Assembly (NCBI GenBank): GCA_937902735.1
Contig: CALELS010000013.1
Coordinates: 134,523-198,522 of the forward strand
Source: an uncultured Bacillales bacterium
GTDB lineage: Bacteria; Bacillota_I; Bacilli_A; RFN20; CAG-826
Length of the DNA stretch: 64,000 nt
Reading direction: 5' to 3'
The number at the start of each line of letters is the position of its first letter. The stretch's first letter is position 1. The notes beneath the pieces are model-generated. The model had not been told where the DNA came from. It saw only the letters and a list, made by a program, of their open reading frames with translations, and made no database searches. The translations under genes and the position numbers were made by a program. This document shows positions 22,042 through 57,471 of the stretch, piece after piece.

Positions 22042-23781
22042 CTATAAAACAACAACTTTATACGCTAATGTTTGCGTCTTGAATGGGTCCTTACATTTGA
22101 TGTATCCATCTAGGATTGATGGTAGTGCAGCAATGGCTTGTCTGCTCTCTCTAAATTTATCTAGAGTGATTTTATTTGATGCATCGATTGTCACTACAAT
22201 TTCATGTTTATCAACCGCGATAATACGGTAGAAGAAGCAGTCCATCATTTCTTTGGTAAGCATCTTATAAGTTATTTCTTTGCCTTTTAAGATATCAATC
22301 ATCTTGGATAAGCGGACTTCAGCTTCTTTTCTTAAGACGGTCTTATCTTGGACCCTTTGTATTTCTGCGACTACGTTTTGATAATCATTAACTAAATCTT
22401 GGTAACGTGTATCCAATGTCTTTCTCATCTCAACCGTATTAGCGGCTGCTCTTTCTTTTAACAAGAAGTCGATATCTCCATTAAGTTGGCTCTTCTTTTC
22501 GAGTAGCCTATTGAGTTCTTCGTCAACATCTGTTTCTTCTGATAACGTAGATGTTAAAGCTTTAGATAGTTTATTAAAGGCATTAGTGTTACCCATATAA
22601 AGTTTATTAATGATATCAGCACATGCTCTTAGAATCATGTTTTCACTAAGTGGTTTTGAGTGGCATCGATGGGTTTTAGTTGGATAGATATAAGTATTGC
22701 ATTGGAACATAATCTTTGGCTGTCCATCAGGATAACCTTTATACCATGTTCTTCTTTTATAGGATGCTCCACAGCCATAGCAGATAATCATGCCGCTTAA
22801 TGGATGTTTGGTGTTGTATTTACTTAAATCTCTATTCTTCCCAACTGCTTTAGCGGATTGAGACTTAAGTCTAGCTTGCACTCTATTCCATTGTTCTATA
22901 GAAATAATGGGTTCATGTGCTCCCTCGACTTTATACTTTTGTCTTTGACCTCTATTTTCTCTACGCTTATGGGTAAGATAATCAACGGTATAAGTCTTTT
23001 GGAGTAATAAGTCACCCATGTATTTTTCGTTTCTAAGCATTCCTAGAACAGTGGTGTTATTCCAATTGGTTCTACCAGTCATGGTTTTAATGCCACGCTT
23101 TTTAAGTTCTCTACATATGGTGTCTGGTCCCTTGCCTGAATCATATAAATCAAATATCAAACGAACCACTTTAGCTTGCTCTTCATTGATGACTAATTGC
23201 TTTTTATCTTCGCTTAGGTCATAGCCCATGAAGTTTGATGGTGCTACAAATGGCACACCTTCACGCATTTTCTTTTGTACGGTCCATGTAACGTTCTCTG
23301 AAATGTGTCTACTCTCTTCTTGAGCCATAGAGCTAATTATTGAAAACATGAATTCGTTTTTAGCATCAAAGGTGCTTAGTCTTTCATTATCAAAATAAAC
23401 TTCGACACCTATTTCTTTCAGTTCACGTATTGTCTGGATTGTTAAGACAGTGTTTCTTGCAAATCTTGATATCGACTTAACTAGGATTAAATCAATCTTG
23501 CCAGCTTTGGCATCTTTAATCATTTGATTGAAACCGTTTCTACCTTTCGCTGACGTGCCGGATATACCTTCATCTGCGTAAACCTTTACTAATTGATAAT
23601 CAGGATTCTCAAGGATCCTTTTGGTCCACTCTTCAATTTGGTTGTTAAAAGAAGTGGATTGCTCTTCGCTGTCAGTACTAACACGACAGTACGCCGCAAC
23701 GCGTTTTACTCGCGACTCAGATAGATCTTTATCAAATATGCTATCCACCTTTGTAGGAGCAATAATTTGTACATTATTCAT
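22042..23781 (-). CDS. Large serine recombinase (resolvase catalytic domain + recombinase domain + Zn ribbon + coiled coil)
   Basis: AAYCRVSTDSEEQ catalytic Ser motif; CYGCG...C zinc ribbon; ~579 aa. Confidence 0.9.
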   Translation of the reverse strand: MNNVQIIAPTKVDSIFDKDLSESRVKRVAAYCRVSTDSEEQSTSFNNQIEEWTKRILENPDYQLVKVYADEGISGTSAKGRNGFNQMIKDAKAGKIDLILVKSISRFARNTVLTIQTIRELKEIGVEVYFDNERLSTFDAKNEFMFSIISSMAQEESRHISENVTWTVQKKMREGVPFVAPSNFMGYDLSEDKKQLVINEEQAKVVRLIFDLYDSGKGPDTICRELKKRGIKTMTGRTNWNNTTVLGMLRNEKYMGDLLLQKTYTVDYLTHKRRENRGQRQKYKVEGAHEPIISIEQWNRVQARLKSQSAKAVGKNRDLSKYNTKHPLSGMIICYGCGASYKRRTWYKGYPDGQPKIMFQCNTYIYPTKTHRCHSKPLSENMILRACADIINKLYMGNTNAFNKLSKALTSTLSEETDVDEELNRLLEKKSQLNGDIDFLLKERAAANTVEMRKTLDTRYQDLVNDYQNVVAEIQRVQDKTVLRKEAEVRLSKMIDILKGKEITYKMLTKEMMDCFFYRIIAVDKHEIVVTIDASNKITLDKFRESRQAIAALPSILDGYIKCKDPFKTQTLAYKVVVL

Positions 23782-50087: not shown

Positions 50088-50118
50088 TAATAAAAAGCCA
50101 CCTTCAGGCATGGGTGGC
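50088..50118 (-). terminator. Putative intrinsic terminator on the minus strand
   Basis: GCCACC-TTCAGGCATG-GGTGGC hairpin followed, on the minus strand, by TTTTTATT. Confidence 0.4.
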
Positions 50119-50890
50119 AACCACTACTCTTTCGGTAGTCGAATGTGCTCTAGCTTTTAACGAGCCCTAGGCACGACGCTAAACTCGATTCCACAATAAC
50201 TTAGGAACACCTATGAAGCATTCGCGACTGCTTAAGATATATTTTACATATCTTTCATAAACAAATCATCATTATCGATCACTTTTTTTCACATTTTTGT
50301 ATAAAATGACGTTATTTTTATAAAAATAATGCTTTTTTATAGTAATTGAATTGCTTTTTGGTAAATTTCTACAACGCATCAATTGTTCAAATTTTATTAG
50401 TAATAATAAATTATATGTGAAGCGTTATGTGGCTTCAGAGGAGAACTACATATTAGTTGTAGCTTATAAAAAGCTAATAATCAAAACTGGATGATGAAAA
50501 ACAAAACCAGCACATGATGTGACTAGAGGCCTATGTACGTTCAGGGATGTCAGGTTAACGCTGAAAACTGTAGGTCTTTCATTATGGCTACCGAATATTA
50601 GTCCAAAGTATCGGATGGCTAACTGATTTGGATAAATCTAGTCCGGCGCGCACCTACGGATTAGTGGGCGATGACATTGGCGGAAACGTTCTACACTACT
50701 ACGAAAAGTTGCATGAGTTATGCTTTGCAACGCGTAGGGCGTTTCTATTGGACTATTGGACCTATTGGACAAGATTGGAGAAAATTTATGAACATTTCAA
50801 AGAAAAGAGAACACTGGATAGAGATGACGAGAGATGCAAAAGACATTATGAGAAAGATTAATCGAATTAAAAAATATGGAGGACCGGATA

Positions 50891-51286
50891 ATGAAAAAGA
50901 TAACAGACGTAATAAAGAAAAAAGAAACAAAGGCAATCATTCTGGTAGACGAATCGTTAATAGCAGAAAATGAAGACACTTATAGAAGATTCTTTGAATT
51001 ATATAATAGTTTTACCAAAGGTAATAATATTTATAAAATTGACTGGAAACATGATTTTTACGTCGTAAATATGAAAAATGTTAAGCAACTTATGAATACC
51101 ATTGATGATATTTCCGAAAAAATAAAACCCTCACAAGTATTGTTTCTTAGCCAAACAATATATGAGGATGTTTTAAGGTATTATGATAACGCCGCACCGT
51201 ATTTTGAATTAATGGCTAGAGCAAGCAATAGGATGATAGTCATTAGTAATTTACTGTTGGAGATGTATAAATTAAACGATTGCTAA
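50891..51286 (+). CDS. Hypothetical protein
   Basis: GGAGGACCGGATA-ATG RBS; no motif. Confidence 0.45.
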   Translation: MKKITDVIKKKETKAIILVDESLIAENEDTYRRFFELYNSFTKGNNIYKIDWKHDFYVVNMKNVKQLMNTIDDISEKIKPSQVLFLSQTIYEDVLRYYDNAAPYFELMARASNRMIVISNLLLEMYKLNDC

Positions 51287-51945
51287 AGCAACTTAAACAT
51301 ATTTGCTTGGGCAATATCATCAATTTTTAAAAGGATAAAGAGAATAAAATGTATTGGTAAATTGAATGAAGGTAGATCACAGAAAGAATAATCAACCTTG
51401 AGTCGAATTGAATCAACGAGCTCATTCAATTGCAATTCACTAAATTTAGTAAGGTCAGCATTTTTCGACTTTAAAATAGAACTCGTGCTTGTTTCTAAAG
51501 CTAAAAATTCTAAACAGCGAGGAAAAATACTTGGGTTTAATCTCCATAAAGCAGTGAATGGAGCAGTATAGATGAAAGTATTTATGGAAGGTAATTCTTG
51601 CTCAAGAAAATTTATAGCAGTCTCAGAAGGTAAATTAGCTATTCGTTTAGTGGTTAAATATTTATATTGAATTGTTGCATGTTTACCTTTGGCAATCGTG
51701 TTTGCATATTTGAATAATTTAGTGTACTCAGGATTGTTTTTAAAAGCACCTTGAAGGAACAAAGTATATACATCGTAAGCATACTTATCCAAAAGATCCA
51801 TATGGTCACCTGATGCTAAAATCAGACAAGCTCTCCTATTTTTCTTTGTGCCACCATATGTAAGCCTTATTTTGTTTTGCTTGCAGTATGCTTCAAGCCA
51901 CAATAATCGAAAATGATTATTATCTCTCATATTTTTCTCCTTCAA
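51283..51945 (-). CDS. Hypothetical protein
   Basis: ORF only. Confidence 0.4.
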   Translation of the reverse strand: MKEKNMRDNNHFRLLWLEAYCKQNKIRLTYGGTKKNRRACLILASGDHMDLLDKYAYDVYTLFLQGAFKNNPEYTKLFKYANTIAKGKHATIQYKYLTTKRIANLPSETAINFLEQELPSINTFIYTAPFTALWRLNPSIFPRCLEFLALETSTSSILKSKNADLTKFSELQLNELVDSIRLKVDYSFCDLPSFNLPIHFILFILLKIDDIAQANMFKLL

Positions 51946-52018: not shown

Positions 52019-52756
52019 ATGAAACATTCATCAAAATCTATTTTAATGTGGCTTTCAAAAAAGAACAAAGGAGACTGGTTAGGGATATTTAAAGATATCC
52101 AAAATAAGACCGAGATACCAGACGAAATTGATGTCAGCAACGATTACGATTGTGTAACAATTTTAGACCCACAATATAGCAATAAGCTACGTCAATGTTG
52201 GCATCCACCATTCGTGTTATGGCACCTCGGAGACCTTAATTTATTGAACGAGCCAAACATCATGTGTGTCTGTGGACAAAATAGTCCTAATAAAGACACG
52301 ATCAACTTAATTAAGCATATTTGCGATAGCTACGTAATCATAAATGGCGACGACTCTGCTTTGGAAAGAGTCGCTCTTCAAACCGCTATGGCTGAAGGCA
52401 AAAAATTTATCATGGTATTGAATCAAAGCCTCTACAATATCGATTACGATGACACACTAATTCAATACGCAATCCATAACGGATGTTTACTTCTCTCGGA
52501 ATATGGTTGGGAAGATCCTGACGACATCGAGAAAAGTGAAAACGAAAAACAACGTATCATAGGTTTCTTAGCTGATAAGATGCTTGTGACAAGTGCATCA
52601 AGAAACAATATGAGACTTAAATTATTAATCGACGAGTGCCTTAGCAAAGGCTCTGACCTTTTTGCCTTGCCTGCACCGCCATTCAAGGGAGAACTCACCA
52701 ACGATTTACTAAGGGATGGGGCTATCCTTGTTAATAAAAATTCAGATATTTTCTAA
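52019..52756 (+). CDS. DprA/Smf-like Rossmann (SLOG-superfamily) protein, divergent
   Basis: GCLLLSEYG..., QRIIGFLADKMLVTSASRNN and GSDLFALPAPP parallel the DprA motifs (llSEyp, RNRiiagLs..vvea, vfavPG). Confidence 0.45.
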   Translation: MKHSSKSILMWLSKKNKGDWLGIFKDIQNKTEIPDEIDVSNDYDCVTILDPQYSNKLRQCWHPPFVLWHLGDLNLLNEPNIMCVCGQNSPNKDTINLIKHICDSYVIINGDDSALERVALQTAMAEGKKFIMVLNQSLYNIDYDDTLIQYAIHNGCLLLSEYGWEDPDDIEKSENEKQRIIGFLADKMLVTSASRNNMRLKLLIDECLSKGSDLFALPAPPFKGELTNDLLRDGAILVNKNSDIF

Positions 52757-52777
52757 AGAAAGGAGGCAAACTCTTAA

Positions 52778-53209
52778 ATGTTACCATGTTGTTGTGTTAA
52801 GCGTTTATTAACGGTTCTAGAAGCCAAGCCAAGACCAAACCGAAAGGTAAAAACAGCTATCTATTGTTCAAATACAGCTGATGTCGATGGATTAGGACGC
52901 TATGTTAAGCAATATTTAACTGATGAGTCCTATATTTCTCGTAATCAATATTGGTTTGACTACGATAACGAAAACGTTTACATAGATAAAAGCGACAACC
53001 ATAAGATGTTCAATTATGTTATTGCACAAAATTATGAAATAATTTTCATGATGGTAGGTGATGACGAAGAAGAATTGATGGATATTGTGAATCAATTACC
53101 TGATAGTAATAACACCGTATTCATTACTATGGACTGTAAGCTTAGAAGTTATCAATTTCTAGATACAAATAATAGACCTAGACAATTAAAACGTAAGGCA
53201 AGCGATTAG
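52778..53209 (+). CDS. Hypothetical protein, partner of the SLOG-like gene
   Basis: AAAGGAGG RBS; TAIYCSNTADVDG... could be a small Rossmann-like domain (speculative). Confidence 0.4.
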   Translation: MLPCCCVKRLLTVLEAKPRPNRKVKTAIYCSNTADVDGLGRYVKQYLTDESYISRNQYWFDYDNENVYIDKSDNHKMFNYVIAQNYEIIFMMVGDDEEELMDIVNQLPDSNNTVFITMDCKLRSYQFLDTNNRPRQLKRKASD

Positions 53210-53546
53210 GCTTGTCTTTTTAAATATTTAAGAGCTACTGCTATGAAAAAATATCCAATTCAAAGAAGAAATACAGGACAGCACAACAATAATTTTATTG
53301 TTCCTGTTACTAAACCCAATATCCAAATCCCAAATGCCTTTGGTGTGCTGTCTGAAGGTTCCAGGTTTAGAGATCATAATATCGCTGGCCAGATTTACAC
53401 CAGAATAGATCTCCAAGATAAAAACGGAAACAGAATGAGTATCCATCAAAGACAGCAGGTGTTGAATTTGGTAAACAACACTAGGAATTTCTTTCATGTT
53501 AGCGATGGAGCAAATAATCGTAGACAGAATATAAGGAGGTTTAGAC

Positions 53547-53822
53547 ATGTCAAACGATAAATTATCACAATTAGTCAAGGACTACATTGAAGTTGATTCC
53601 GAGATTAAGGCTAATCAATTATTAGCCGATGAAATCAGAACTCAAATCAAAAATGAGATGGCAGAAAGAGGTTTAGAAGAGATTGAGGTCGACTCATTTC
53701 TTGTTAAATCTCGCTCACAACTCGTATCTGTGTTTGACACAAAGAAATTCAAGGAGATGTTACCACAAATTTATGGACAGTTCCTTAAACAAGTCAGCCG
53801 TTCTCAGTTTTCTATTAGCTAA
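53547..53822 (+). CDS. Small coiled-coil protein
   Basis: Perfect TAAGGAGG RBS 8 nt before the ATG. Confidence 0.5.
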   Translation: MSNDKLSQLVKDYIEVDSEIKANQLLADEIRTQIKNEMAERGLEEIEVDSFLVKSRSQLVSVFDTKKFKEMLPQIYGQFLKQVSRSQFSIS

Positions 53823-54343
53823 TACCGGCAAATCTCGTATACCGGCAAATATTACGGCGGTATCAAAAATTATGGAAAACAAGCCCCGTAAGCCTCTCCG
53901 GTTGTAACGATTATCATTCCAAAAAAAGATAAAAATTACGTCATGAGGGGCTACGGTGCTTAGATTTTACACAATTTAGCGAGTATATCTCTCGCGCGCA
54001 CGCGTATGCGCGCAAATATTTATATATGTACAACTTCAAATGCGTAAATCGCTCTTTGTATTAAATAAAAAAGAGCCACCAACAAATTCATTAGTCAGAT
54101 GACTCTGGCTGGAAAAGAGGACCTTGCAATGACAAGAACAACATTAAATTTTCCTGATGATGACGGTGGCATCAATTCAGGAGCAACAAACAAAACCACC
54201 AAAATAAAATTCAATGAAGACGCTTTGTGCAGAGCTTTTATCAGAAAATTCTGCACATTAGGTTATCTAACCTCTTCCGAAACGGGAGAAATGCTAGGCC
54301 GAATTGGCGGCACTAACTATCCAAGAGTGTAGAGGTATTAATA

Positions 54344-56080
54344 ATGAAAGAAGTTAAGGTGATAGCCCCCGTTAAAGACGAGGGCTCTTTAAATGACGGA
54401 TCAAAAGAAATGCCAAAAAGAAGAGTCGCAGCGTATGCTCGTGTCTCTACTGGAAGCGAAGAACAAGCAACATCGTTTGAGAATCAAGTAAGCTATTGGG
54501 AAAAATGGATCTCCGAACAAAAGGACTGCGAATTAGTCAAGGTATATGCGGATCACGGAAAAAGTGGCACCTCCACAAAAAAGAGAGTGTCCTTCAACGA
54601 AATGATTCGTGATGCCCTTGATGGAAAAATAGACCTCATTGTATGTAAATCTATTTCTCGTTTTGCTAGAAACACCCTAGACTCCATCGCTACCGTCAGA
54701 CAGCTTAAAGCGGTTGGAGTTGAAGTTTATTTTGATAACGAACACTTATGGTCGCTAAAAGCAGGGAGTGAATTCACACTCACCGTTTTATCATCTATGG
54801 CGCAAGAAGAATCAAGGCATATTTCAGAAAACATCACATGGGCATTTCGCAAAAAGATGCAAGATGGAAAGCCTTTTGTCTGCACAACCAGATTCCTCGG
54901 ATATGATAAAAACGAAGCGGGCGATCAACTCGTTGTAAACAAAGACGAGGCAGTAATTGTTAAATTGATTTTTGATTTATACGATTCAGGAATTGGCTGT
55001 TTGAGAATTTGCAACGAGCTAATGAGACGTGGATATAGAACAGTCACAGGAAATGTTTTTTGGCATACATCAGTAATAATGGACATTCTAAGAAATGAAA
55101 AATATTGTGGTGATTTAATGCTCCAAAAGACATATACATTCGATTACCTCACCCATACGAGAAGAGATAATGACAATGTGCTTCCAAAATATTATGTAAA
55201 GGATGCGCACGAAGCTATCGTTCCTCGTGACCAATGGAAAAGAGTCCAAGCAAGAATCAAGGACAGTTATGAATCGATTGTCGGGCCAAATTTTGATAAG
55301 AGCAAGCACAACAACAAATATCCTTTAAGCGGTGCCATGATTTGCCAAAACTGTGGACACACATACAAAAGAAGAATATGGAATTCAAAGCATGATACCG
55401 CTAAAAAATATGTTTATCAGTGCACTCATTACGTCATAAAAGACGAAAAAGGAGAAACTTGCCACAGCAAACCAATCGGCGAAACAACAGCACATGAGAT
55501 TTGCTGTGATGTCATCAATAACGTCTATCTAAAAAACAGCAGAATATTTAGCAAAATGACTAATCTCATTCAAAGCACATTCAAACTTGATAAAATTGAG
55601 TCCGAAAAACGCAAATTATCGAGAATTAAAGAGGATTTGAGTGAGAAAATTGATGTTTTGATGGTTGAAAGACTAGATGCCAAGAATCTCGAACTTAAAG
55701 AAAAAATAGACAAGAAATACCAACAGTTACTCGATCAATATGAACATATCGATAATGAGTTAGCTTATCTTACCCAACGCGAAATAGTTGCTAATAACAG
55801 CAAAAGCAGAATGGATAAGATGTTAGCTGTTTTAAACAAAAATAAAGTTACTCCAGATATGCTCACAAGAGAAATGGTAGACGTCTTCTTTTATAAAATA
55901 TTTGTATCAACTTCTTCAGAACTAACATTTGTAATTGACACATCACACACTCTTACACTCGAAAAATTAATCGAGAAGAGAGAAGAGATTGCCAATTATG
56001 AATCGATTTACAGTTCAGAGAAAGCTGATAGAGAATCTAGATTTAAAAATATCGTGAAATATAAGGTAGTTTTAGTCTAG
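54344..56080 (+). CDS. Large serine recombinase (paralog of 22042..23781)
   Basis: VAAYARVSTGSEEQATSFENQ; same domain order as the first recombinase; ~45% identical by eye. Confidence 0.9.
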   Translation: MKEVKVIAPVKDEGSLNDGSKEMPKRRVAAYARVSTGSEEQATSFENQVSYWEKWISEQKDCELVKVYADHGKSGTSTKKRVSFNEMIRDALDGKIDLIVCKSISRFARNTLDSIATVRQLKAVGVEVYFDNEHLWSLKAGSEFTLTVLSSMAQEESRHISENITWAFRKKMQDGKPFVCTTRFLGYDKNEAGDQLVVNKDEAVIVKLIFDLYDSGIGCLRICNELMRRGYRTVTGNVFWHTSVIMDILRNEKYCGDLMLQKTYTFDYLTHTRRDNDNVLPKYYVKDAHEAIVPRDQWKRVQARIKDSYESIVGPNFDKSKHNNKYPLSGAMICQNCGHTYKRRIWNSKHDTAKKYVYQCTHYVIKDEKGETCHSKPIGETTAHEICCDVINNVYLKNSRIFSKMTNLIQSTFKLDKIESEKRKLSRIKEDLSEKIDVLMVERLDAKNLELKEKIDKKYQQLLDQYEHIDNELAYLTQREIVANNSKSRMDKMLAVLNKNKVTPDMLTREMVDVFFYKIFVSTSSELTFVIDTSHTLTLEKLIEKREEIANYESIYSSEKADRESRFKNIVKYKVVLV

Positions 56081-56089
56081 CGTTATAAG

Positions 56090-56115
56090 ACAGTATCTTC
56101 GATACTGTTTTTTTA
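56090..56115 (+). terminator. Intrinsic terminator
   Basis: ACAGTATC-TTC-GATACTGT perfect 8-bp stem followed by TTTTTTT, 10 nt after the recombinase stop. It overlaps the convergent rlmD stop. Confidence 0.65.
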
Positions 56116-57471
56116 TTGTTTGTCCTTGCGATATAGTCCTACTATAGTTTCCACATGATATGTCATAGGGAATAAATCTACAGCATGTACTCTTTCGATA
56201 TTGTATTTAGTTGTTAACTTAACCAAATTTTCTCCAAGTGTTTCAGGATTACAAGAAATATAAACAATTCTTTTTGGAGCAACTTCTAATAAAGAATCTA
56301 TAAATTTATCATCAAGTCCCTTACGTGGAGGATCGACAAAAACACAATCAAATTTATGTCCTTCTTCTTTATATCTTTTTAAGAAATTAGAAGCATCATC
56401 ACAATAGAATTTAGCGTTAGCTATATTGTTAATCTTTGCATTATCTTTGGCATTCTTAATTGCATCATCTATTATTTCTACACCTACTACTGATTTACAT
56501 TGTCTTGAAGCAATTAAACCAATAGTGCCTATTCCACAATAAGCATCTAACACTTCATCATCTTTACTTAAGTTAGCTTCTTTAATTGCTAAATCATATA
56601 ATTTTTCAACTTGGATAGGATTTACTTGATAGAAAGATTTGGATGAAATTCTAAACAAAACACCCAATATAGAGTCTTTAATATAAGATGTTCCATATAA
56701 TGTCCTACATTTATCACCTAGTATGACATTTGTATGTCTACTATTAATATTTTGAACAACTGATTTGATACTAGGATGAAGTTCTACTAAAGCCTTTATA
56801 AAAGCGTTCTTACTTTTAAATTCATCCTTGGTTGTTACTAAGGTAACCATTATTTCATCAAAGTGATATGAAGTTCTAATTAATATATGTCTTATTAAGC
56901 CAGTCCCTTTATCTTCGTCATATGGTTCTAGATGAAATTCTTTCATTAGTTTTTTAATTGTCACAATGATTTCACTTGCTTTAGCATTTTCAATATAACA
57001 TTTAACAATTGGAATGATTTCGTGGGAGTTCTGACGGTAAAATCCACTAATAAGGCGGCCATGAGAATCTTTTCCTAATGGCACTTGAATCTTATTACGA
57101 TATTCATATGGATAGTCCATCCCAATAGCAGGACTAACTTCATATTCTTTTTTAAGATGTCTACGTAAAGCATCTTTTACTTTGTTGGTTTTATATTCAA
57201 GTTGAGCTTTGTAATCTAGTTGTTGAAATTGACATCCTCCACAGGCAGTGCACACTCCACAGAGAGGTTGAATACGGTCTTTGGATTTAGTAATTAGATG
57301 ATGTACTTTACCAAAAAGTGCTCCATTGCGACGATACAAAACTTTTACATCAGCTTCTTCACCTATAAATAGGCCATCAACAAAAACAATACCAATATCA
57401 GATTTAAGAACGCCTTTACCTTCGAATGAAAGGTCAATACATTTTCCTCTTACAATCTCAAACTTGTTCAT
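56113..57471 (-). CDS. rlmD: 23S rRNA (uracil-C5)-methyltransferase RlmD/RumA family (TRAM + Fe-S + SAM MTase)
   Basis: CGVCTACGGC Fe-S cluster motif, DAYCGIGTIG (motif I), VDPPRKG (motif IV). Confidence 0.85.
   Translation of the reverse strand: MNKFEIVRGKCIDLSFEGKGVLKSDIGIVFVDGLFIGEEADVKVLYRRNGALFGKVHHLITKSKDRIQPLCGVCTACGGCQFQQLDYKAQLEYKTNKVKDALRRHLKKEYEVSPAIGMDYPYEYRNKIQVPLGKDSHGRLISGFYRQNSHEIIPIVKCYIENAKASEIIVTIKKLMKEFHLEPYDEDKGTGLIRHILIRTSYHFDEIMVTLVTTKDEFKSKNAFIKALVELHPSIKSVVQNINSRHTNVILGDKCRTLYGTSYIKDSILGVLFRISSKSFYQVNPIQVEKLYDLAIKEANLSKDDEVLDAYCGIGTIGLIASRQCKSVVGVEIIDDAIKNAKDNAKINNIANAKFYCDDASNFLKRYKEEGHKFDCVFVDPPRKGLDDKFIDSLLEVAPKRIVYISCNPETLGENLVKLTTKYNIERVHAVDLFPMTYHVETIVGLYRKDKQ

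What the first reader, a model, noticed from the sequence alone, without database searches (positions are those of the whole stretch)
52019..53209. DprA/SLOG-like Rossmann protein with an uncharacterised partner inside the island
ORF 52019 retains the DprA-type motif series (…LLSEYG…RIIGFLADKMLVTSASRNN…GSDLFALPAPP) but lacks DprA's SAM/DD flanks and is far from competence genes. The next gene (AAAGGAGG RBS) is unknown. SLOG-family Rossmann domains are recurrent nucleotide-sensor/processing components of conflict systems, so this may be a small signalling or nucleotide-modifying defence pair.
Basis: inference. Interest (0 to 1): 0.55.

Follow-up and report, generated by a model that had tools for sequence, protein, structure and literature searches.

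The report
Degenerate DprA copy in island backbone
The gene is a real but strongly diverged, island-borne copy of the recombination mediator DprA; it belongs to a conserved four-gene block next to a site-specific recombinase in a little-known family of small integrative islands that carry restriction-modification cargo, and it is not half of a two-gene defence pair.

Summary
ORF 52019-52756 is a genuine DprA-family protein. It passes Pfam PF02481 (56.6 bits, cut-off 29.6) but falls far below the dprA equivalog cut-off (56 against 191). All 10 family members lack both published ssDNA-binding signature motifs, are acidic (pI 4.4-5.1) and are under strong purifying selection (dN/dS 0.02-0.04).

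Its short architecture is not a special loss. Canonical DprAs of related low-GC bacteria, in rbgA-rnhB-dprA-topA, have the same ~250-270 aa layout.

The 143-aa "partner" is a real gene but optional: it is absent from about half of the related loci. The constant neighbours are a very basic 95-105-aa protein, a 91-aa protein and then a serine recombinase.

This block is the conserved backbone of integrative islands that sit at tRNA-Gly, tRNA-Ser or beside rlmD. Their cargo varies, with at least six kinds of restriction-modification system. There is no PRTase or helicase toxin and no recognisable effector nearby, so the defence or signalling pair reading is not supported.

My best reading is a neofunctionalised DprA that acts through protein contacts in the island's own DNA transactions. 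That step is inferred, not shown. Moderately interesting; a new variant of a known kind.

The parts
50495..50790 (+). Conserved, GC-richer non-coding stretch at the start of the conserved backbone; candidate structured leader RNA
   Evidence: It is conserved in L009, L020 and L013. RNAalifold gives 62 pairs, 15 of them with compensatory changes among 4 sequences. The single-sequence MFE is -82.3 kcal/mol, z = -2.3. A spaced motif occurs once in the window (0 expected) and in L009, L013-16 and L020. No Rfam hit.
50891..51286 (+). 131-aa backbone gene of unknown function (homologue: 127 aa in L013)
   Evidence: Gene calls in L016/L020. DNA homology to L013 8835-9159. No Pfam or PHROG hit.
51283..51945 (-). 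220-aa gene, divergent from the DprA-like gene; an optional backbone gene
   Evidence: A minus-strand gene of similar size at the same position was called in L016, L020, L021 and L012 (215/216/192 aa), and a 203-aa ORF sits there in L027. Absent in L013. For L012 and L027 this rests on position and size only; homology to the window gene was not tested. No family hit.
52019..52756 (+). Degenerate DprA paralogue (245 aa, pI 4.9), first gene of the conserved operon
   Evidence: PF02481 56.6 bits, above the gathering score of 29.6. TIGR00732 56 bits, below its cut-off of 191. 3UQZ 66 bits, ShosA 31 bits. Motifs G-S/T/A-R and F-x-x-R-N/D are replaced by G-Q-N and E-x-x-K-Q. dN/dS 0.02-0.04.
52778..53209 (+). 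143-aa optional accessory gene (the 'partner'); small alpha/beta Rossmann-like protein with a basic C-terminal tail
   Evidence: Only 7 homologue clusters exist in 5.8 billion proteins. In the loci fetched it always sits directly after the DprA-like gene: window/L016, L009, L013-15, L017/L018, L020-23, L025, L026 and L027. It is absent in L001-8 and L010-12. AF2 pLDDT 67; no PDB fold match with E<=0.001. dN/dS 0.09-0.16.
53243..53560 (+). 105-aa very basic protein (pI 11.9); conserved neighbour of the DprA-like gene
   Evidence: It is homologous to the 95-102-aa genes in L001, L013, L020, L026 and L027 by blastp/tblastn and codon alignment. By inspection or alignment of the translations it also matches those of L004-6, L008 and L012. 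The 99- and 98-aa genes at the same position in L010 and L011 were not compared. dN/dS 0.14-0.17. No Pfam or PHROG hit. A natural in-frame fusion with the 143-aa protein exists, P0202.
53547..53822 (+). 91-aa acidic helical protein; conserved neighbour; its start overlaps the 105-aa gene by 14 nt
   Evidence: phrog_6244 E=1.8e-13. C-terminal region of phrog_434 'RecE-like recombination exonuclease' E=2.9e-9. Present in every related locus long enough to reach that position. AF2 model helical, pLDDT 78; no BFVD match.
53992..54015 (.). GC-rich palindrome (GCGCGCA-N6-TGCGCGC) in the gap between the 91-aa gene and the recombinase unit; terminator-like or protein-binding site
   Evidence: Terminator-like hit. 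GCGCGCAC occurs only twice in 64 kb, both times in the backbone (0.23 expected). Sequence.
54099..54332 (+). 67-77-aa ORF 12 nt upstream of the recombinase gene (conserved in LSR-type islands); possible recombinase accessory factor
   Evidence: Gene calls in L016, L020, L021, L023 and L024. 100% identical 67-aa form in L020. No family hit.
54344..56080 (+). Large serine recombinase (578 aa), the island's integrase, abutting the rlmD-like gene 56113-57471(-)
   Evidence: Resolvase + Recombinase + Zn_ribbon_recom domains. Same junction with the tRNA_U5-meth_tr gene in L016 and L020, and with a partial gene call at that position in L021. 46% identical to the second LSR at 22042-23781(-).

Best explanation
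**What it is (shown).**
- ORF 52019-52756 is a diverged, island-borne paralogue of the short-form DprA of this low-GC lineage.
- It is the first and most constrained gene of a conserved operon: DprA-like, then an optional 143-aa gene, then a 105-aa basic protein, then a 91-aa protein.
- That operon always lies just upstream of a serine recombinase.
- The block is the backbone of a family of integrative islands, apparently of Erysipelotrichaceae. The islands are inserted at tRNA-Gly, tRNA-Ser or beside rlmD. Their cargo is variable, mostly restriction-modification systems.

**How it probably works (inferred).**
- The protein has lost the canonical ssDNA-binding pocket of DprA.
- It keeps the C-terminal dimerisation helix motif.
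- It keeps acidic residues at the three positions that mediate RecA binding in S. pneumoniae DprA.
- I therefore propose that it no longer acts as a generic ssDNA-loading mediator. Instead it would act as a protein-protein adaptor, contacting RecA, the host DprA and/or the adjacent very basic 105-aa protein.
- Together with the 105-aa and 91-aa proteins it would control recombination or DNA processing for the island itself: excision, establishment or stable maintenance.
- The 143-aa protein is an accessory add-on to this module, not its obligate partner.
For: **Family assignment and divergence.**
- Pfam PF02481 is above threshold, but the dprA equivalog model is far below its cut-off.
- The full-length alignment to canonical DprA at rnhB-dprA-topA gives 27% identity over aa 6-245.

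**Motif loss.**
- Wang et al. (PMC3950713) define two ssDNA signatures: G-S/T/A-R and F/L/Y-x-x-R-N/D.
- All 10 family members carry G-[QE]-x and E-x-x-[KS]-[QTC] instead.
- The replacements are themselves conserved, and dN/dS is 0.02-0.04. This points to a new function, not decay.
- pI is 4.4-5.1.

**Retained surfaces.**
- Mapping onto 3UQZ with the residues of Lisboa et al. (PMC4066776) gives E235/D243/E265 -> D205/D213/(D/E)233 and M238 -> L208.
- The N-x-L-[IL]-x-x-G-A-x-L-V helix is kept.

**Synteny.**
- The order DprA-like, [140-143 aa], 95-105 aa, 91 aa, serine recombinase holds down to 47% identity. It holds with two different recombinase types.
- The 91-aa protein shares a domain with phage RecE-like exonuclease families.

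**Backbone versus cargo.**
- Direct repeats of tRNA 3' ends bound 6.4-13 kb islands.
- RM or methylase cargo differs in all 7 informative islands.
- The backbone-cargo junction is at about 50314.
Against: - No experiment or interaction prediction supports RecA, DprA or 105-aa binding.
- The acidic-triad match could partly reflect the generally acidic composition. In addition, D213 is conserved in canonical DprAs anyway.
- Lisboa et al. note that acidic positions shuffle during evolution.
- The family is small and closely related: 10 sequences at 60-91% identity plus 47-48% relatives. Conservation statistics are therefore weak.
- DNA binding through other surfaces is not excluded.
- None of the neighbours has an assigned function, and both structure searches gave nothing significant.
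- The constant RM cargo could mean that the block serves the RM system rather than island mobility.
Confidence: 0.5

Rival explanations
1. ShosA/PsyrA-type arrangement. The DprA-like protein is an antitoxin or sensor, and a neighbouring small protein (the 143-aa or 105-aa one) is a toxin or effector. Together they form a small abortive-infection or toxin-antitoxin module.
For: - PADLOC PsyrA 31 bits and ShosA 26.5 bits. PDB ShosA 9VZO/8ZVA 31 bits, with the alignment including the N-terminal GxW segment.
- DprA homologues are antitoxins in shosTA, psyrTA and rqlHI (PMC9122126; PMC11961720).
- The locus sits in a defence island.
- An acidic protein (pI 4.9) next to a very basic one (pI 11.9) resembles a neutralising pair.
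Against: - The DprA-family hit (56-66 bits) is twice as strong as the ShosA/PsyrA hits.
- There is no PRTase or RecQ-like toxin in the operon or its flanks.
- ShosA needs DNA binding to neutralise ShosT, whereas this family lacks both DNA-binding motifs.
- The 143-aa gene is dispensable in half of the loci.
- The block keeps a fixed position next to the recombinase while the true defence cargo varies.
Confidence: 0.12
2. Restriction-modification establishment or anti-restriction helper. The DprA-like protein would modulate the island's own RM cargo, or the DNA damage it causes on arrival in an unmethylated host. This would parallel H. pylori DprA, which inhibits restriction enzymes and stimulates methyltransferases.
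For: - Every informative island carries a DNA methyltransferase or RM system of a different kind next to the block: C5 MTase, N4/N6 MTase + MamI, Dam + N4/N6, two N4/N6 + 597 aa, 368 aa + C5, EcoRI-methylase fragment, type IIG + S.
- HpDprA interacts physically with MTases and blocks type II REases (PMC3597690).
Against: - The HpDprA effect depends on DNA binding, and the DNA-binding motifs are lost here.
- One factor would have to act on mechanistically unrelated RM types.
- RM is simply the commonest cargo of small islands.
- In the window the RM genes are on the other strand, more than 2 kb away, beyond the backbone-cargo junction.
Confidence: 0.13
3. SLOG-type nucleotide sensor or processing enzyme. 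The remodelled pocket would bind or modify a nucleotide or second messenger, and the neighbours would transduce the signal.
For: - DprA belongs to the same Rossmann clan as LOG (PMC3950713).
- The pocket residues are replaced by a new, invariant, acidic set (NGDDSA[IL]E, DYDD, SxSxxNxRL). That is compatible with a new ligand or a metal site.
- The 143-aa partner models as a small Rossmann-like domain.
Against: - There is no LOG motif (PGGxGTxxE), and no Pfam hit other than PF02481 at E<=1.
- No cyclase, TIR, SLATT, nuclease or other effector lies in the operon.
- The partner has no significant fold match; the best is E=0.07, TM 0.38.
Confidence: 0.08
4. It is simply the organism's housekeeping dprA.
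For: - The length and N-terminal segment are the same as in canonical short DprAs of related bacteria.
- No other dprA lies in the 64-kb window.
Against: - It scores 56 bits against an equivalog cut-off of 191.
- Both signature motifs are missing.
- It is located inside mobile islands at three different insertion sites and in tandem copies.
- Canonical genes sit in rbgA-rnhB-dprA-topA-trmFO.
Confidence: 0.02

Closest known systems
DprA/Smf recombination mediator (Pfam PF02481; S. pneumoniae DprA 3UQZ; canonical short DprA at rnhB-dprA-topA in low-GC bacteria)
   Same: - It has the same Rossmann domain over its full length and the same overall architecture as the lineage's canonical gene.
- It keeps the D-x-x-Y-P, PP-x-x-L-x-x-x-G, SEY and C-terminal N-x-L-I-x-x-G-A motifs.
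- It has acidic residues at the RecA-triad positions.
   Different: - Only 27% identity.
- Both ssDNA-binding signature motifs, the SG-x-A-x-GID motif and the E-A-x-x-x-SGT motif are replaced.
- Acidic pI.
- Encoded in mobile islands next to a serine recombinase instead of at the rnhB-topA locus.
ShosA (ShosTA) and PsyrA/RqlI, the DprA-like antitoxins of phage-defence toxin-antitoxin systems
   Same: - DprA-fold proteins encoded on mobile elements or defence hotspots.
- Weak but significant profile similarity that includes the N-terminal segment.
   Different: - Those proteins keep the DNA-binding motifs and need DNA binding.
- They are paired with PRTase or helicase toxins encoded upstream.
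- Neither feature is present here.
H. pylori DprA as a modulator of restriction-modification
   Same: A DprA-family protein functionally linked to RM systems. Here the link is physical, with RM cargo in all islands (and the context calls).
   Different: The HpDprA activity relies on ss/dsDNA binding and was shown for the housekeeping protein. Here the DNA-binding motifs are lost and no interaction has been tested.
Small tRNA-targeting integrative islands carrying RM cargo (genomic islets with integrase + RM)
   Same: - Tyrosine integrase or LSR at one end.
- Direct repeats of the tRNA 3' end.
- A variable RM cassette.
- Tandem arrays.
   Different: The conserved DprA-like / 105-aa / 91-aa / serine-recombinase block has no counterpart that I know of or could find. 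There were no PHROG, Pfam or NCBIfam names, and no source names any of these proteins.

Membership tests
DprA/Smf (functional recombination mediator) | Pfam PF02481 DNA_processg_A domain above the gathering score | tested here: met
   56.6 bits against 29.6, profile positions 5-210 of 212.
DprA/Smf (functional recombination mediator) | NCBIfam equivalog TIGR00732 dprA above its curated cut-off | tested here: not met
   56 bits against 191.15; NF008007 41 bits against 495.
DprA/Smf (functional recombination mediator) | ssDNA-binding motif 1, G-S/T/A-R (Arg52 of HpDprA, Arg115 of SpDprA) | tested here: not met
   G86-Q-N in the window and G-[QE]-x in all 10 members. No Arg is present. Motif definition from PMC3950713.
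DprA/Smf (functional recombination mediator) | ssDNA-binding motif 2, F/L/Y-x-x-R-N/D | tested here: not met
   E174-x-x-K177-Q178 in the window. The family shows E-x-x-[KS]-[QTC].
DprA/Smf (functional recombination mediator) | Acidic RecA-binding triad and C-terminal dimerisation helix (SpDprA E235/D243/E265, M238, I263-L269) | tested here: inconclusive
   The aligned positions are D205/D213/(D/E)233 (acidic in 8 of 10), L208 and N228-x-L-L-x-x-G-A-x-L-V. This is an alignment-based match only.
DprA/Smf (functional recombination mediator) | Housekeeping or competence context (rnhB-dprA-topA in low-GC bacteria) | tested here: not met
   The gene lies inside islands next to a serine recombinase. 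Canonical genes of L028-L030 and L032 sit in rbgA-rnhB-dprA-topA.
DprA/Smf (functional recombination mediator) | Binds ssDNA and loads RecA | not testable with these tools
   Needs EMSA and RecA-loading assays.
ShosTA / PsyrTA (RqlHI) defence toxin-antitoxin systems | DprA-like antitoxin matching the system's profile | tested here: inconclusive
   PsyrA 31 bits, ShosA 26.5 and 20.1 bits. ShosA structures 31 bits. All are weaker than the generic DprA hits.
ShosTA / PsyrTA (RqlHI) defence toxin-antitoxin systems | Adjacent toxin gene (PRTase ShosT, or RecQ-like/PRTase PsyrT/RqlH) | tested here: not met
   No such domain occurs in any gene from 50.8 to 56.1 kb or in the related loci.
SLOG/LOG nucleotide-sensing conflict systems | LOG-type motif (PGGxGTxxE) or a Lysine_decarbox/LOG profile hit | tested here: not met
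   Only PF02481 was reported at E<=1. The motif is absent from the sequence.
SLOG/LOG nucleotide-sensing conflict systems | Linked effector or nucleotide-generating enzyme in the same operon | tested here: not met
   The partner and the 105-, 91-, 77-, 131- and 220-aa proteins have no significant Pfam, NCBIfam, PHROG or PADLOC effector hits. The partner's fold search had no hit at E<=0.001.

The most novel reading that the evidence does not exclude
A mobile-island-encoded, DNA-binding-deficient DprA mimic. It would keep the dimerisation and RecA-contact surfaces and act as a decoy or modulator of the host RecA/DprA pathway.

Possible roles:
- suppressing natural transformation or homologous recombination that would delete the island;
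- damping the RecA response to self-restriction while the island's RM cargo establishes.

It would work with two new small proteins, in a previously undescribed family of RM-carrying mini-islands.
Probability: 0.2. Interest if true: 0.7.

Novelty: new variant of a known kind. Interest (0 to 1): 0.45.

Why it matters
- **A possible third role for the DprA fold.** DprA is known as the RecA loader of natural transformation and, more recently, as an antitoxin in defence systems. A strongly constrained DprA copy that has lost the DNA-binding pocket, and is hard-wired next to the recombinase of small RM-carrying islands, would be a third use of the fold. It could show how mobile elements manipulate host recombination or competence.
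- **A new island family.** The locus defines a compact, apparently unnamed family: int or LSR, a serine recombinase, three or four orphan genes and a swappable RM cassette. This could serve as a model for how RM systems move.
- **Limits.** The function is not established, the family is rare, and the defence-pair idea that motivated the finding does not hold.

Tried and rejected
- **Prophage hypothesis for the window: rejected.** PHROG/Pfam scans show NrdD, two LSRs, a primase-helicase and a series of defence systems, but no structural genes among the ORFs scanned.
- **Phage databases.** tblastn of the DprA-like protein gave only three distant hits at 25-27% identity in unannotated records. The 143-, 105- and 91-aa proteins gave none. 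blastn of 50-56.1 kb hit only recombinase genes.
- **IMG/VR scans.**
  - The family alignment gave no relatives.
  - The wider degenerate group gave mostly canonical-motif DprAs, none with the conserved 105-aa, 91-aa or recombinase neighbours.
- **Partner structure.** The model is of moderate quality (pLDDT 67). Foldseek against the PDB found no match at E<=0.001. Generic Rossmann-like hits (Argonaute MID, PTS IIB, receiver) reached TM <=0.5.
  - A TIR-like reading of the 'AIYCSxTxD' strand was considered and dropped, because there is no Pfam or fold support.
  - The Cas_APE2256/CARF hit (E=0.19) is treated as noise.
- **91-aa structure.** The model is helical, with no BFVD match. The Sipho_Gp157 (E=0.023) and NTase_sub_bind (E=0.001) hits are below their cut-offs.
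- **Rfam.** Nothing was found for the conserved non-coding stretch at the gathering or E-value thresholds. Its spaced motif is absent from IMG/VR.
- **Neighbours.** Pfam and PHROGs on all neighbours, and PHROGs on the left part of L013, found nothing informative.
- **Names.** No public source gives any name to these proteins.
Full report
**1.

The window has ORFs at 52019-52756 (+, 245 aa) and 52778-53209 (+, 143 aa).

- The first protein matches Pfam DNA_processg_A (PF02481) at E=2.7e-15 and 56.6 bits, against a gathering score of 29.6. The match covers profile positions 5-210 of 212 and residues 41-238.
- A family profile hits S. pneumoniae DprA 3UQZ at 66 bits.
- It fails the NCBIfam dprA equivalog model by a wide margin: 56 bits against a cut-off of 191.
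- The second protein matches nothing.

**2. The setting**

The window is low-GC (about 33%) and has no tRNA genes. I first took it for a prophage, but it is not one.

- 16.5-18.2 kb is nrdD.
- 22042-23781(-) and 54344-56080(+) are two large serine recombinases, 46% identical to each other.
- Between them lie:
  - a primase-helicase;
  - a Type ISP RM enzyme;
  - a UvrD-type helicase with Top1-type zinc ribbons;
  - SoFic;
  - AbiEi/AbiEii;
  - a second Fic protein;
  - a PDC-S01-like AAA_14/DUF4143 protein;
  - a Schlafen/AlbA_2 protein;
  - a type IIG-like methylase with its S subunit.

'Inside the island' is therefore correct: this is a defence island.

**3. The family is rare and the real partners are different**

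- Only nine homologue clusters (60-91% identity) exist among 5.8 billion proteins.
- One genome hit was found, in an Erysipelotrichaceae MAG at 94% identity.
- The recurrent order is:
  1. DprA-like;
  2. an optional 140-143-aa gene;
  3. a 95-105-aa gene;
  4. a 91-aa gene;
  5. a serine recombinase.
- The ~98-aa gene that follows the DprA-like gene in L001, L004/L005 and the related loci is homologous to window ORF 53243-53560 (105 aa, pI 11.9). It is not homologous to the 143-aa 'partner'.
- The 143-aa gene is present in the window/L016, L009, L013-15, L017/L018, L020-23, L025, L026 and L027. It is absent in L001-8 and L010-12.
- Its presence is patchy in both island types. It has only seven homologue clusters. 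In the loci fetched it sits directly after a DprA-like gene.
- One natural variant, P0202, fuses it in frame to the 105-aa protein through a TAG-to-CAG change.

All four genes are under purifying selection:

| Gene | dN/dS against L009/L020 (105-aa: L020/L012) |
|---|---|
| DprA-like | 0.02-0.04 |
| 143-aa | 0.09-0.16 |
| 105-aa | 0.14-0.17 |
| 91-aa | 0.14 |

**4. Backbone versus cargo**

- In L001 and L010 a 20-nt direct repeat of a tRNA-Gly 3' end bounds a 6.4-kb island. The island contains the DprA-like gene, the 98-aa and 91-aa genes, a 240-aa resolvase, an RM cassette and a tyrosine integrase.
- In L013 three copies of a tRNA-Ser 3' end bound tandem islands of 3.3 and 13.1 kb.
- L027 shows a second DprA-like gene starting right after the integrase of the first island.
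- In the window type the recombinase is a 578-aa LSR. It abuts the rlmD-like gene in L016 and L020, and a partial gene call at that position in L021.
- Homology between the window and L020 starts at about 50314. Upstream of that point L020 has an EcoRI-methylase fragment, where the window has its XRE gene and type IIG RM.
- Every informative island carries a different methylase or RM system.

The DprA-like operon is thus conserved backbone, and the defence genes are exchangeable cargo.

**5. Relationship to canonical DprA**

An exhaustive profile search gives 5489 hits at E<=1e-3. The best 150 are almost all 230-280 aa and align end to end.

- Of the 156 sequences aligned (the top-150 hits of at least 200 aa plus the window family), 46 carry both DprA signature motifs and 79 carry neither.
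- In L028, L029, L030 and L032, motif-bearing DprAs sit in the classic rbgA-rnhB-dprA-topA-trmFO arrangement (the full-length ones are 253-270 aa; L032 is cut by the contig end). They carry the same N-terminal 'G-N/D-W-D-x-I-Y' segment.
- The window protein aligns to the L028 protein over residues 6-245 at 27% identity.

The short architecture is therefore the norm in this lineage. It is not a specific loss of the SAM and C-terminal domains. The window protein is a diverged paralogue of that gene.

**6. What has changed in the protein**

Wang et al. (PMC3950713) define G-S/T/A-R and F/L/Y-x-x-R-N/D as the ssDNA-binding signatures. R52E and R143E substitutions reduce affinity by about 315-fold and 173-fold.

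| Canonical motif | Window family |
|---|---|
| G-S/T/A-R | G-[QE]-x |
| F/L/Y-x-x-R-N/D | E-x-x-[KS]-[QTC] |
| SG-x-A-x-GID | NGDDSA[IL]E |
| GxGxD | DYDD |
| EA-x-x-x-SGT | S-x-S-x-x-N-x-RL |

- All of these replacements are conserved within the family.
- The proteins are acidic, with pI 4.4-5.1.
- Retained features, mapped through the 3UQZ alignment onto the residues of Lisboa et al. (PMC4066776):
  - the C-terminal N-x-L-[IL]-x-x-G-A-x-L-V helix;
  - acidic residues at the positions of the RecA-binding triad (D205, D213, D/E233);
  - L208 at the position of M238.
- This pattern is one of neofunctionalisation under strong constraint. The canonical nucleic-acid pocket is lost, and the protein-protein surfaces are kept.
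- I infer a protein-contact role with RecA, host DprA or the adjacent very basic 105-aa protein. This is inference, not demonstration.

**7. The neighbours**

- The 91-aa protein hits phrog_6244 (E=1.8e-13). It also hits the C-terminal region of phrog_434, 'RecE-like recombination exonuclease' (E=2.9e-9). This gives the module a recombination flavour. Its AF2 model is helical (pLDDT 78) and has no BFVD match.
- The 143-aa protein models as a small alpha/beta Rossmann-like domain with a basic tail (pLDDT 67). It has no PDB match at E<=0.001.
- The 105-, 131-, 220- and 77-aa proteins have no family hits.
- No public source names any of them.

**8. Comparison with known systems**

- DprA-like antitoxins (ShosA, PsyrA/RqlI) give weaker hits of 20-31 bits.
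- Those systems pair the DprA-like protein with an upstream PRTase or helicase toxin. ShosA also needs DNA binding. Neither holds here.
- No LOG motif or LOG hit is present, and no effector is linked.
- H. pylori DprA modulates RM enzymes (PMC3597690). This is an attractive parallel given the constant RM cargo, but that activity is DNA-binding dependent.
- I therefore file the gene as a new variant within the DprA family. It is not a member of Shosta, PsyrTA or a SLOG signalling system.

**9. Verdict**

- The 'defence pair' interpretation is not supported.
- The gene is the most conserved component of a backbone operon of a small, apparently undescribed family of RM-carrying integrative islands.
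- Its mechanism is unknown. My best-supported guess is a DNA-binding-deficient DprA derivative that acts through protein contacts in island-related recombination or DNA processing.
- The most novel reading not excluded is a RecA/DprA decoy that protects the island or eases RM establishment.
- Interest is moderate.

Noticed in passing
window 50495-50790 (+); also L009 10-310, L020 660-950, L013 8440-8740: A conserved, GC-richer non-coding stretch sits at the start of the backbone and has a plausible multi-helix RNA structure. RNAalifold gives 62 pairs, 15 with compensatory changes among 4 sequences, and z = -2.3. There is no Rfam family, and the spaced motif TAACGCT..CGCGCAC..GGGCNAT is absent from IMG/VR. 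It may be a new structured leader or ncRNA.
   Followed up: partly
window 50788-50973 (+): A small ORF is conserved at the protein level in L009 and L013 over about the first 32 codons (MNISKKREHWIEM...RKINRIKKYGG). It has its own GGAG RBS and overlaps the start of the 131-aa gene in another frame. It could be a leader peptide or a small regulator.
   Followed up: no
window 22042-23781 (-) and 54344-56080 (+): Two large serine recombinase paralogues (46% identity) face outward at the two ends of a ~34-kb stretch packed with defence systems: Type ISP RM, a UvrD/Zn-ribbon helicase, SoFic, AbiE, Fic, PDC-S01, a Schlafen-like gene and a type IIG RM. Gene strand switches at ~40.1-40.7 kb. This may be two islands side by side.
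   Followed up: partly
window 53992-54015 and 50646-50653: The GC-rich octamer GCGCGCAC occurs only twice in 64 kb (0.23 expected), and both copies lie in the backbone. One is part of a perfect palindrome, GCGCGCA-N6-TGCGCGC, between the 91-aa gene and the recombinase unit. It could be a terminator or a protein-binding site.
   Followed up: partly
P0202 (2 metagenomic contigs); corresponds to window 52778-53560: A natural variant has the stop codon of the 143-aa gene changed (TAG to CAG). This gives an in-frame 257-aa fusion of the 143-aa and 105-aa proteins. It is a weak Rosetta-stone hint that the two work together.
   Followed up: partly
L001 9034-9236 and 15476-15538; L010 11-171 and 6572-6591; L013 1066-1162, 4367-4462, 17584-17613: The mini-islands are bounded by direct repeats of tRNA 3' ends (tRNA-Gly-TCC and tRNA-Ser-GGA). 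The L001/L010 islands appear to carry a second, intact tRNA-Gly just inside attL. L013 and L027 show tandem island arrays.
   Followed up: partly
window 50100-50220: A second GC-richer non-coding patch lies between the XRE gene and the backbone junction (GCCACCTTCAGGCATGGGTGGC... hairpin-rich). It is not conserved in L020 and its function is unknown.
   Followed up: no
top-150 hits (P0010-P0159): About half of the short DprA-like proteins nearest to this family (79 of 156 aligned) lack both ssDNA-binding signature motifs. Repeated degeneration or neofunctionalisation of DprA paralogues therefore seems common in this sequence neighbourhood.
   Followed up: partly
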